A stretch of 63,354 bases of DNA, filler included, from Eubacteriales bacterium (lineage in GTDB: Bacteria; Bacillota; Clostridia; Oscillospirales; CAG-382): the NCBI GenBank assembly GCA_045636665.1. It is 6 parts of 6 records of this genome, joined end to end, with 100 filler letters (N's around TTAATTAATTAA, not from the genome) between each part and the next. Parts side by side here need not be neighbours in the genome. Positions count along the whole stretch, not along the records: positions 24,598 to 37,317 come from JAZTXY010000041.1; 5 more parts are not named here. The stretch is one strand, 5' to 3'. Shown here piece by piece: positions 30,001 through 33,000 of this stretch (position 1 is the stretch's first letter; each line of letters begins with the position of its first letter). Made by a program: the position numbers.

Positions 30001-33000
30001 TGCAGTAAGCAGTATGATTGTAAGAGATGCTAAAATAAAACAAGTGTCTTTGTTAATTCCCAAATATAAATATAATTGTAAAAATAGCTCGGCAATCGTA
30101 CAAATGGTTCCTCCAACAAAAAATGCTTTGATACAATTTTTTATACAAGGCGAGCGTTCGGCGCGTTTTTCGGTATAATCTTTGTATTGTTTGTTCGTCA
30201 TAATGGATTCCTTTAACTGTTTTTATATAATTTTTGTATTTTTCGTTAAAATATACCCATTCGCTTGACATATTTAAATATTTTGATATAATATTATCTT
30301 GAAATGGAGTGTTTGTATTGAAAGTACCCGAAATAAAGAATGTTTATAAAATGCCCGAAAGTATTCGTTCGATTCTTCGTGAGTCAACCGAGAAATACGG
30401 CGATAAAATTGTTTATAAGTATTTTACTGCACCTAATGAAGTCTCTGAAATGTCTTATAGACAGCTTTATTCTTATTTTAAAAGCGTTGGTACAGCGATT
30501 TGCTCTCTTGGCTTGAATAATAAGAAGATTGCTATTGTAGGCGAAAACAGCCCTTTGTGGATGATTTCGCTTATGTCTGTCATAAGTGCGGGTTCTGTTG
30601 CAGTGCCGCTTGATAAAGACTTGTTGCCTGCACAGATTGAAAATTTTCTTGCTTATTCCGATACCGAAGCAGTTTTCTGTTCGGGTAAGTATGCAGAAAA
30701 AATCGCTGCAATGAATCTTCCTAATTTGAAAGTAATCGTCGATTTTGATAACAAGGGAAGCACCGACAAACGTTATTATTCTTTTGAAAAATTCGTTTCG
30801 TTGGGCGCAAAGCTTGTTGCCGGCGGTGACAAATCCTTTAAGAATTGCAGATATGACCGTTCTAAGATGAGCTTGCTTATCTTTACTTCCGGTACTACCG
30901 GAACAAGTAAGGGTGTTATGCTTTCTGAAGATAACGTGCTTACTGCGCTTAATGCAGCATCTAATATGATCAACTTTAAGAGCAACAACGTTCTTTTAAG
31001 TGTTCTTCCGATGCACCACACTTATGAGATGACAGCGGGACAGCTTACGGCTATTCGTTTGGGACTTACCATTTGTGTTAACAATAGCTTGAAATACGTT
31101 ATGAGAAACATGAAAATGTTTCAACCCACTGCCATGGTTGTTGTACCCTTGTACATCAACACTATTAAGAAAAAAATATCCGATGAAATCAAAAACCGTA
31201 AGAAGCAAAAGGTTGTTGACGTTGGTGTTAAAGCAACTAAGGCGCTTAGAAAGGTTGGACTTGATGCGAGAAGCATAGTTTTCTCTGAGGTGCTGAGCGC
31301 TCTTGGCGGAAAGTTGAAAACTATGATATGCGGCGGTGCCGCTACCGACCCTGAAGCAATCAAGTGGTTTGAAGATTTGGGTATAAACGTTTTCCAAGGA
31401 TATGGTATAACGGAATGTTCTCCGCTTGTAGCTGTTAATCCGATGGTAAACGTACATTATAACTCTGTCGGACTTCCTATTCCCGGATCGCGCGTTAAAA
31501 TAATATCCGATGAAACGGGCAAAGAAATCGATCTTCCTTATGGCGAAATCGGCGAGATTTGCGTTAAGGGCGGTCATGTAATGCTTGGTTATTACAATAA
31601 CGAGGAAGCAACAAAAGCTGCTTTTACACAAGAGGGCTATTTCCGTACAGGCGACTTCGGTTACATGGATCGAGATAATTATCTTTATATTACTGGTCGT
31701 AAAAAGAATATTATTATTCTCGACAACGGCAAAAACGTTTATCCCGAAGAAATCGAGGAATATTTGGAAAGAATCGATTCAATAAAAGAGTGCGTAGTTA
31801 TCGGACGTGGAAATTCTTCGGGCGAAGTTGTAATCACTGCGCTTATTTATCCCGATTACGATCAATTCAAGGAATGTACAGAAGAACAGATAATCGAAAA
31901 AATGCGTTCTGAAGTTGCGAACATTAATAAGATGTTACCTACCTTCAAACAGATACGTAATATCGAAATTAAAAAGAATGAATTCGAAAAGACGACCACT
32001 AAGAAAATAATTCGATATAAACTTTCTTAAATTAACAATCTTAATGAGGTAAATTATGTTAGGTAAGCTTAAAGATCTTTTAGTTAACGAAATGGACATC
32101 AACCCCGAACTCATAGTTCCCACAGCCGAATTGATGAACGATCTCGGTTTCAATTCGCTTGAACTCGCTGATTTGGTTGTGCTTTGCGAAGAAAAGTTCA
32201 ACGTCATCTTTGATGAAAGCGTGCTTCCGACTCTTATCACTGTTGGCGACGTTGTTGCTTATCTCGAGGAGAACGCATAAGATTTTGAGCGCGTTGCTTT
32301 TGCAGTGCGCTCATTTTTTAATTTCGGAGGTTTTTTATGCCCAATATTTTGGTTGCCGAAGACGATATTGCATTAAATAAATTGATATGTAAAGTTCTTG
32401 AAAAAGACGGTCATTTTGTCATTTCAAAAAAAGATGGCGAAGAAGCGTTGAACGTGCTTGACGAAATGCATATTGACTTGATCGTTACCGACGTAATGAT
32501 GCCGAAGCTTGACGGATATGAGTTCATTGAAAACGTCAGAAGCTTCAATTCAACAGTACCTGTGCTTTACGTTACTGCAAAAGGCTCTTTTAATGATAAG
32601 CTTCGAGGCTTTAATCTCGGCGCTGACGATTATATGGTTAAGCCGATCGATATAAATGAACTGATTTTGCGAGTAAACGCGCTTTTGCGCAGAAGCAAAA
32701 TCGCAAATGAGCGCAAAATTGTAATCGGTGATACCGTTTTAGACAGTGAAGCATATACCGTGACCGCTGATGGCGATACGGTTACTTTGCCTCAAAAGGA
32801 ATTTTTGTTACTTTTCAAGCTTTTATCGTATCCTGACAGAGTGTTTACGCGTTTTGAAATTATGGACGAAATTTGGGGATACGAATCCGAAAGTGACGAA
32901 AAGACGATTAACGTACATATCAGCAAATTAAGGAACCGATACGAAAATAACAAAGATTTTTCAATAGAAACCGTTCGCGGCATCGGTTACAAAGGGGTGC

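What a model noticed while it worked through the whole genome (the two positions that open the first line are those of the whole stretch)
30318..32280. Fatty-acid auxotrophy: no FASII, and a conserved acyl-ligase + second ACP operon as the predicted uptake route
This genome and most of the genus lack type II fatty-acid synthesis, and this genome and a third of the genus also lack the FakB/DegV scavenging protein. They keep a long-chain acyl ligase directly followed by a second ACP, plus PlsX, PlsY and PlsC, which predicts growth on exogenous fatty acids through an acyl-ACP synthetase.
Evidence so far: FabF/B in 4 of 23 HQ genomes and FabZ in the same 4, none here; FabF in 9 of 30 family genomes; no Fab, Acc, DegV or Dak2 rows here. 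DegV in 15 of 23; 8 HQ genomes lack both FASII and DegV. g00431 orthologs in 20 of 23, and an ACP follows directly in 21 of 21 ortholog loci but in 0 of 3 paralog loci.
(Added by a program. Inside this text positions count along the whole contig: they may not be those of the stretch shown here. "Call 12" and the like, gene names such as g00115 and contig names such as C1 are that model's own, and its searches are not shown. The text may have been shortened before it was handed on; [...] marks where a part breaks off. The agent that wrote the report below was given it as the finding of a first reader that could run no searches.)

Follow-up and report, generated by a model that had tools for sequence, protein, structure and literature searches.

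The report
Fat-scavenging gene pair in gut Clostridia
Many members of this uncultured gut bacterial family seem unable to make fatty acids and also lack the usual Gram-positive uptake enzyme; they keep an enzyme-plus-carrier gene pair that probably loads outside fatty acids for membrane building, a route so far described in Gram-negative bacteria.

Summary
Window 30318-32280 is a two-gene operon (consensus promoter, terminator) for a 570-aa long-chain acyl-adenylate ligase and an atypical ACP (ACP2). The FabF, DegV and ligase counts reproduce: 4, 15 and 20 of 23 high-quality genus genomes.

The pattern is wider than reported. 31 of 82 near-complete family genomes, in 10 genera, lack both FabF and FakA; all 31 keep PlsX and 29 keep ACP2. 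In the genus, every genome has FakAB or PlsX. ACP2-linked ligases form one clade across three families. FakA is missing in 43 of 92 ACP2-bearing genomes versus 15 of 308 others.

Best reading: an acyl-ACP synthetase route replaces FakAB, with this pair as one dedicated module (0.5).

Against: the pair also sits in FASII-positive genomes. Two double-lacking genomes have ACP2 without the linked ligase. A canonical ACP and three ligase paralogs could carry the bulk flux. ACP versus CoA specificity cannot be read from sequence.

FASII loss, Aas enzymes and dedicated Aas/ACP pairs are each known; I found no report of this wiring in Bacillota. The scan had not noted it elsewhere. New variant; interest 0.6.

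The parts
30265..30292 (+). Sigma-70-type promoter match (12 of 12, 16-nt spacer, extended -10)
   Evidence: consensus match, not tested for function
30318..32030 (+). Long-chain acyl-adenylate ligase, 570 aa (PF00501 + PF23562); proposed acyl-ACP synthetase
   Evidence: linked orthologs form one clade
32056..32280 (+). ACP2, 74-aa atypical acyl carrier protein; invariant Ser34 preceded by Asn; below all NCBIfam ACP cut-offs
32286..32313 (+). Terminator-like hairpin followed by a T run, closing the two-gene operon
28403..30201 (-). Divergent spoVAC-spoVAD-spoVAEB genes; syntenic neighbour, probably not part of the system
   Evidence: spoVAC next to 45 of 83 linked ligases with flank, in 0 of 13 outside the family code f1 that were labelled f13, f17 or Lachnospiraceae
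32337..34072 (+). OmpR-type response regulator and histidine kinase after the terminator; variable neighbour, not part of the system

Best explanation
This clade makes no fatty acids and has no fatty-acid kinase, so it must activate outside fatty acids another way. Proposed steps: (1) the ligase forms acyl-AMP from a long-chain fatty acid and ATP (family assignment shown; chain length inferred); (2) it transfers the acyl group to the phosphopantetheine on Ser34 of ACP2, primed by an Sfp-type PPTase (inferred, about 0.7); (3) acyl-ACP is turned into acyl-phosphate by PlsX for PlsY and used directly by PlsC (known chemistry; genes shown). An Aas-type route of this kind in the FASII-less, FakAB-less genomes is likely (about 0.7). 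The pair is one module of it, beside two or three paralogous ligases and canonical ACP1; that ACP2 rather than ACP1 carries the bulk flux is only about 0.4. In the sister subclade without FASII and PlsX, FakAB supplies PlsY and the pair is the only visible source of acyl-ACP.
For: All 33 genus genomes without DegV keep PlsX, and all 11 without PlsX have FakA and DegV. 31 of 82 family genomes lack FabF and FakA; 31 keep PlsX and 29 keep ACP2. The 8 double-lacking HQ genus genomes keep the pair and a canonical ACP (5 checked by sequence, 3 by score), which a pure CoA route would not need. 9 of 10 genomes lacking both FabF and PlsX keep the pair, ACP1 is not listed in them, and 4 of 4 tested keep a PPTase. 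The ligase precedes ACP2 in 50 of 54 family loci outside the genus, 5 of 5 in f13 and 8 of 15 in f17. 89 linked ligases fall in one 97-row clade (support 96, FastTree). FakA is absent in 43 of 92 ACP2-positive versus 15 of 308 ACP2-negative order genomes. Paralog number is 2-4 in 8 FakA-less versus 1 in 11 of 14 FakA-positive HQ genomes. Precedent: AasR acylates only its cognate AcpR, and the two genes form an operon in delta-proteobacteria (PMC9386255).
Against: No biochemical test exists, and sequence cannot separate Aas from CoA ligases (PMC10522932; PMC12086093). Best NCBIfam, PDB and fold matches are CoA ligases and luciferases at 17-24% identity. The pair is kept in all 6 FabF-positive genus genomes, and 49 of 92 ACP2 genomes have FakA. 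All 4 g8 genomes and 7 of 15 f17 loci have ACP2 without an adjacent ligase. G112 and G117 lack FabF, FakA and ACP2. G029 (98%) lacks FabF, PlsX, ACP2 and the linked ligase. The PlsX-less subclade has a different, non-cmk-linked PlsC whose donor could be acyl-CoA. No PPTase was found in G056 (98%) in two searches. Kin are not independent: PlsX loss is confined to one subclade. The paralog count depends on a cut-off and on a query from the FakA-less clade.
Confidence: 0.5

Rival explanations
1. The ligase does load ACP2, but as a side branch for a special lipid, protein acylation or regulation (like AasR/AcpR or AcpB). Bulk phospholipid acyl chains come from paralogous ligases loading canonical ACP1.
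For: The pair persists regardless of FASII or FakAB status. ACP1, PlsX and the cmk-linked PlsC are absent together in the PlsX-less subclade while ACP2 stays. Paralogs are more numerous where FakA is missing. G084 and G086 lack the linked ligase. ACP2 differs from canonical ACPs around the serine.
Against: No acceptor gene is linked: the operon is closed by promoter and terminator. No serine-palmitoyltransferase-like protein is found in G000 (80% complete). In the PlsX-less, FASII-less subclade ACP2 is the only strong stand-alone ACP.
Confidence: 0.25
2. The ligase and its paralogs are acyl-CoA synthetases. PlsC, and a PlsX with altered specificity, use acyl-CoA. ACP2 is loaded second-hand or has another role.
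For: Automatic labels and best matches are CoA ligases. G029 (98%) appears to live with FakAB, one ligase paralog, a divergent PlsC and no strong ACP.
Against: It does not explain why ACP1, ACP2, PPTase and PlsX are kept in FASII-less genomes, nor 50-of-54 adjacency. PlsX and Gram-positive PlsC are described as using acyl-ACP (PMC10146087). Recalled beta-oxidation motifs found nothing in G000 (no positive control). Missing pairs track completeness (21 of 23, 14 of 19, 6 of 19) and are unclustered on the PlsX tree, so G029 may be a gap.
Confidence: 0.2
3. The gene absences are artefacts of incomplete metagenome bins or of divergent enzymes missed by the profiles.
For: G000 is 80% complete; the pair itself drops out of many incomplete bins. 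FabZ and FabD were tested in only 5 genomes.
Against: 31 genomes at 90% or more lack both FabF and FakA while none of them lacks PlsX. The profiles ring in control genomes and in FabF-positive relatives. DegV and Dak2 are missing from the same genomes, bar one.
Confidence: 0.05

Closest known systems
Acyl-ACP synthetases feeding PlsX/PlsY/PlsC: Alistipes AfAas1/2, Neisseria AasN, Chlamydia AasC, Vibrio AasS (PMC10522932, PMC12086093)
   Same: Adenylate-forming enzyme proposed to load outside fatty acids on ACP for phospholipid synthesis; several paralogs possible.
   Different: Those four are from Gram-negative bacteria and were active with E. coli ACP. Here the host is a Bacillota lineage often without FASII, with a second, co-transcribed ACP. 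Vibrio AasS is no closer than CoA ligases (E 7e-39).
AasR/AcpR of Caulobacter and other Rhodobacteria (PMC9386255)
   Same: A putative acyl-CoA synthetase paired with a specialised ACP; operonic in delta-proteobacteria.
   Different: AasR/AcpR feeds serine palmitoyltransferase. No such gene is linked here or found in G000. Homology to AasR was not tested.
FakAB-PlsX-PlsY-PlsC route of Gram-positive bacteria (PMC10146087), including FASII-less lactobacilli (bioRxiv 10.1101/2023.12.30.573720)
   Same: PlsX, PlsY and PlsC present; dependence on outside fatty acids predicted.
   Different: FakA and FakB are absent here, whereas the auxotrophic lactobacilli keep them. A sister subclade keeps FakAB but lacks PlsX.
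Enterococcus faecalis AcpB (PMC6509188)
   Same: Atypical second ACP outside the fab operon, tied to outside fatty acids.
   Different: AcpB is a PlsX substrate and supplies the FabT ligand; it has no partner ligase in the abstract I read. ACP2 is kept where PlsX and the fab operon are gone.
FASII loss in uncultured gut bacteria such as RF39 (PMC6784871)
   Same: Loss of fatty-acid synthesis in gut MAGs and predicted uptake of fatty acids.
   Different: That paper points to the Firmicutes phosphoryl-transfer route, which these genomes lack.

Membership tests
Adenylate-forming long-chain acyl ligases (PF00501 + PF23562) | Domain match, intact ATP/AMP motifs and two-domain ANL fold | tested here: met
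   (pLDDT 89.6)
Acyl-ACP synthetase (Aas) | Transfers acyl-AMP to holo-ACP rather than CoA | not testable with these tools
   Needs assay; sequence does not discriminate
Acyl-ACP synthetase (Aas) | Closer in sequence to a characterised Aas than to CoA ligases | tested here: inconclusive
   Vibrio AasS ranks below many CoA ligases; Alistipes, Neisseria, Chlamydia and cyanobacterial enzymes were not compared
Acyl-ACP synthetase (Aas) | Host has ACP, PPTase and acyl-ACP-using PlsX/PlsC | tested here: met
   exception G056 without PPTase
AasR/AcpR sphingolipid module | Conserved linkage of ligase and specialised ACP | tested here: met
AasR/AcpR sphingolipid module | Co-occurring serine palmitoyltransferase | tested here: not met
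   No hit in G000 with a genus SPT-like query; genome 80% complete
Acyl carrier protein (PF00550) | Domain match and invariant phosphopantetheine serine | tested here: met
Housekeeping AcpP | Above NCBIfam AcpP cut-off, Asp before the serine | tested here: not met
   ACP2 scores 44.7 against a cut-off of 70.45; ACP1 scores 81.3
FakAB scavenging route | FakA (Dak2) and FakB (DegV) genes | tested here: not met
Fatty-acid auxotroph | Growth requires outside fatty acids | not testable with these tools
   Gene absences only

The most novel reading that the evidence does not exclude
Three families of gut Clostridia inherited a dedicated acyl-ACP synthetase with its own carrier. It made FASII, FakAB and, in one subclade, PlsX individually dispensable, giving Gram-positive bacteria whose membranes are built wholly from scavenged fatty acids without fatty-acid kinase, and relatives that split the work (FakAB for the first acyl chain, ligase-ACP2 for the second).
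Probability: 0.4. Interest if true: 0.75.

Novelty: new variant of a known kind. Interest (0 to 1): 0.6.

Why it matters
Reviews describe FakAB as the Gram-positive way to use outside fatty acids and acyl-ACP synthetases as the Gram-negative way (PMC10146087, PMC12086093). A Bacillota family in which 31 of 82 near-complete genomes lack both FASII and FakA breaks that rule and names candidate enzymes that can be assayed with two or three recombinant proteins. It predicts a growth requirement (long-chain fatty acids) that could help culture these gut bacteria, and it offers a new ligase-carrier pair for acyl-ACP chemistry.

Tried and rejected
Complex prediction of ligase with ACP2 returned no answer (score 0.06, mark 0.32) and is not used as evidence either way. 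No RNA holder was listed for the operon. Sequence and fold searches of the PDB gave only generic ANL-superfamily matches; the Atlas gave generic names. A search for linked-clade-specific basic residues found several (R266, R446, R500, R533, K555 in 573-aa numbering) but net charge did not differ from paralogs; not diagnostic. A FabF tree of 27 rows showed two separate lineages in the genus, with G058's copies grouping with a g10 genome; it does not settle loss versus regain. An assembly-gap explanation for G056's missing PPTase was not confirmed. True lineage loss of the pair inside the genus was rejected: absences are unclustered on a 48-row PlsX tree (13 changes, shuffled mean 14.9). A sporulation role from the spoVA neighbourhood was rejected because the linkage is confined to part of one family. 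G245's ACP, counted among the 92, proved to belong to an SPT-like operon; dropping it gives 43 of 91 versus 15 of 309. Cluster look-up for organism names could not be made, so the family is known only by code. Look-ups of earlier findings showed nothing on this system.

Full report
WHAT IS THERE. The window is stitched from contigs of an 80%-complete, 1.8-Mb genome; the finding lies on contig C41. Named relatives are Clostridia metagenome bins, many from animal guts by their record titles; the family is known to me only by a code. The locus is a 570-aa ligase (30318-32030; PF00501 and PF23562) and a 74-aa ACP (32056-32280; PF00550), between a 12-of-12 promoter match and a terminator-like hairpin. 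The ligase folds confidently as an adenylate-forming enzyme (pLDDT 89.6), with no solved relative above 24% identity among the listed fold matches. ACP2 has an invariant Ser34 preceded by Asn in 19 of 19 aligned copies and falls below AcpP cut-offs. The genome also has a canonical ACP1 on C82, a third ACP beside an FkbH-like gene, and three paralogous ligases without an ACP.

In 61 genus genomes (23 HQ): FabF 6 and 4, DegV 28 and 15, Dak2 27 and 14, ligase ortholog 39 and 20. Eight HQ genomes lack FabF, DegV and Dak2. ACP follows the ortholog in 38 of 38 loci with a flank. G000 lacks FabZ and FabD, as do the three other FabF-less genomes tested, while G052 has both. tblastn with relatives' fab operons finds no FabK, FabD, FabF, FabZ or Acc subunit in G000. 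PlsX, PlsY, PlsC and PPTases are present.

WHAT I ADD: THREE WIRINGS IN ONE GENUS. PlsX is missing from 11 of 61 genomes, and all 11 have FakA and DegV; all 33 genomes without DegV have PlsX. Every genome therefore has a source of acyl-phosphate for PlsY. The 11 fall in one branch of the ligase tree where they are represented, so this is few events, not 11. State A: FASII, FakAB and PlsX (5 genomes; G058 has FASII without PlsX). State B: FakAB without FASII or PlsX (10 genomes); 9 keep the pair, ACP1 is not listed for them, 4 of 4 tested keep a PPTase, and 5 of 5 tested have a different PlsC from the cmk-linked one. State C, including G000: PlsX without FASII or FakAB (33 genomes; 8 HQ, all with the pair), with 2-4 ligase-family genes per HQ genome. 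Some state-C relatives carry a cassette with DegV, FakA and, variously, a second PlsX, PlsC-like genes, hydrolases and a ligase-ACP fusion.

WIDER RANGE. Among 82 other family genomes at 90% or more: FabF 26, FakA 31 above cut-off (one weak partial hit dropped), PlsX 75. 31 lack both FabF and FakA, in 10 of 14 genera; all have PlsX, 29 have ACP2. One of the 31, G037, has DegV. The ligase precedes ACP2 in 50 of 54 loci outside the genus; the 4 exceptions are all of genus g8. In 400 order genomes at 95% or more, ACP2 is in f1 (47 of 48), f13 (7 of 8) and f17 (37 of 47) and nearly nowhere else. FakA is missing from 43 of 92 ACP2-positive and 15 of 308 ACP2-negative genomes (hand-tallied, cut at E 1e-24, four weaker hits counted as negative; kin not independent). 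Of 44 f13 and f17 hits I examined 20: adjacency 5 of 5 and 8 of 15. In a 202-row tree, 89 linked ligases lie in one 97-row clade. FabF was not scored outside the family.

HOW IT PROBABLY WORKS. PlsX interconverts acyl-ACP and acyl-phosphate, PlsY uses acyl-phosphate, PlsC uses acyl-ACP, and FakAB is the Gram-positive activator (PMC10146087). A cell with PlsX, PlsY, PlsC, ACPs and a PPTase, but neither FASII nor FakAB, needs an enzyme that puts free fatty acid on ACP. The long-chain ligase family is the only candidate I found, and one member has travelled with its own ACP across three families. Shown: the genes, their linkage and the absences. Inferred: substrate, acceptor and which carrier feeds which transferase. 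I put auxotrophy of the clade at 0.9, an Aas-type route at 0.7, the window ligase loading ACP2 at 0.7, and the pair serving membrane-lipid uptake at 0.5.

RESULTS AGAINST. The pair is kept in FASII-positive and FakAB-positive genomes, so it is not a response to their loss. G084 and G086 are double-lacking without the linked ligase; G112 and G117 are double-lacking without ACP2. G029 lacks PlsX, FabF, ACP2 and the linked ligase at 98% completeness; G056 has no detected PPTase. ACP1, PlsX and the cmk-linked PlsC vanish together in state B, which suggests that ACP1 is their partner and that ACP2 may serve something else. Absence of the pair follows completeness (21 of 23, 14 of 19, 6 of 19) and is unclustered, so some exceptions may be gaps.

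COMPARISON WITH WHAT IS KNOWN. It works like Aas plus PlsXYC in Gram-negative bacteria and is organised like AasR/AcpR. Membership in Aas is untested; membership in the sphingolipid module and in FakAB is not met. FASII loss in uncultured gut bacteria is published (PMC6784871). What I saw of each paper: PMC6784871, PMC13761379, PMC10146087, PMC12086093 and bioRxiv 10.1101/2023.12.30.573720, passages; PMC9386255, abstract and section 15; PMC10522932, first third of the text; PMC6509188, outline and abstract. Eight searches listed no paper on an acyl-ACP synthetase or FakAB-independent uptake in Clostridia; I saw listings only, and the library omits most subscription papers. I did not read any supplements; Supplementary Table 19 of PMC6784871 may already list this family as lacking fatty-acid synthesis. 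The PROSITE-style motifs are recalled.

VERDICT. Real feature, counts sound, interpretation partly supported. New variant of a known kind; interest 0.6.

Noticed in passing
L273:1229-2761 (G056:C6); similar ACP-bearing frames in G054:C38 and G059:C15; L327 (G245:C20): ACP fused to an alpha-oxoamine synthase (BioF/SPT-like, below all cut-offs) beside a short-chain reductase; G245 has the three as separate adjacent genes. Suggests sphingolipid-like synthesis in Clostridia. Not found in G000.
   Followed up: partly
L261 (G036:C5), L262 (G008:C37), L263 (G007:C43), L264 (G066:C56): Lipid-scavenging cassette with DegV, FakA and, variously, a second PlsX, PlsC-like genes, alpha/beta hydrolases, a PPTase, an ACP and a 642-aa ligase-ACP fusion; patchy distribution suggests mobility.
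   Followed up: partly
G001, G003, G006, G011, G012, G017, G029, G031, G033, G055, G058: No PlsX found in 11 genus genomes, 7 of them HQ; five tested carry a longer, non-cmk-linked PlsC.
   Followed up: partly
window 54365-55090 (-): Acyl-ACP thioesterase-family gene (PF01643, PF20791) in a genome without FASII; could recycle or edit acyl-ACP.
   Followed up: no
L275, L276 (G058:C10, C53): Two fab operons in one genome without PlsX; its FabF copies group with a g10 genome rather than with genus members.
   Followed up: partly
L279 (G029:C35), L310 (G017:C18): DegV directly followed by a ligase paralog, facing a 425-aa remote acyltransferase.
   Followed up: partly
L412 (G039:C5), L425 (G048:C136), L415 (G015:C14): Other adenylate ligase plus ACP gene pairs with ACPs unlike ACP2.
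   Followed up: no
L186:1423-1968 (G000:C106): Sfp-type PPTase directly after a gyrA-like gene, the same arrangement in G005, G028 and G030.
   Followed up: partly
window 37601-39949 (+): 782-aa HTH-cupin fused to a short-chain acyl-CoA synthetase (MbcS-like, below cut-off) on the next contig.
   Followed up: no
window 8025-8124, 24498-24597, 37318-37417, 44582-44681, 52495-52594: N-padded joins between contigs C39-C45; genes across them are not neighbours.
   Followed up: yes
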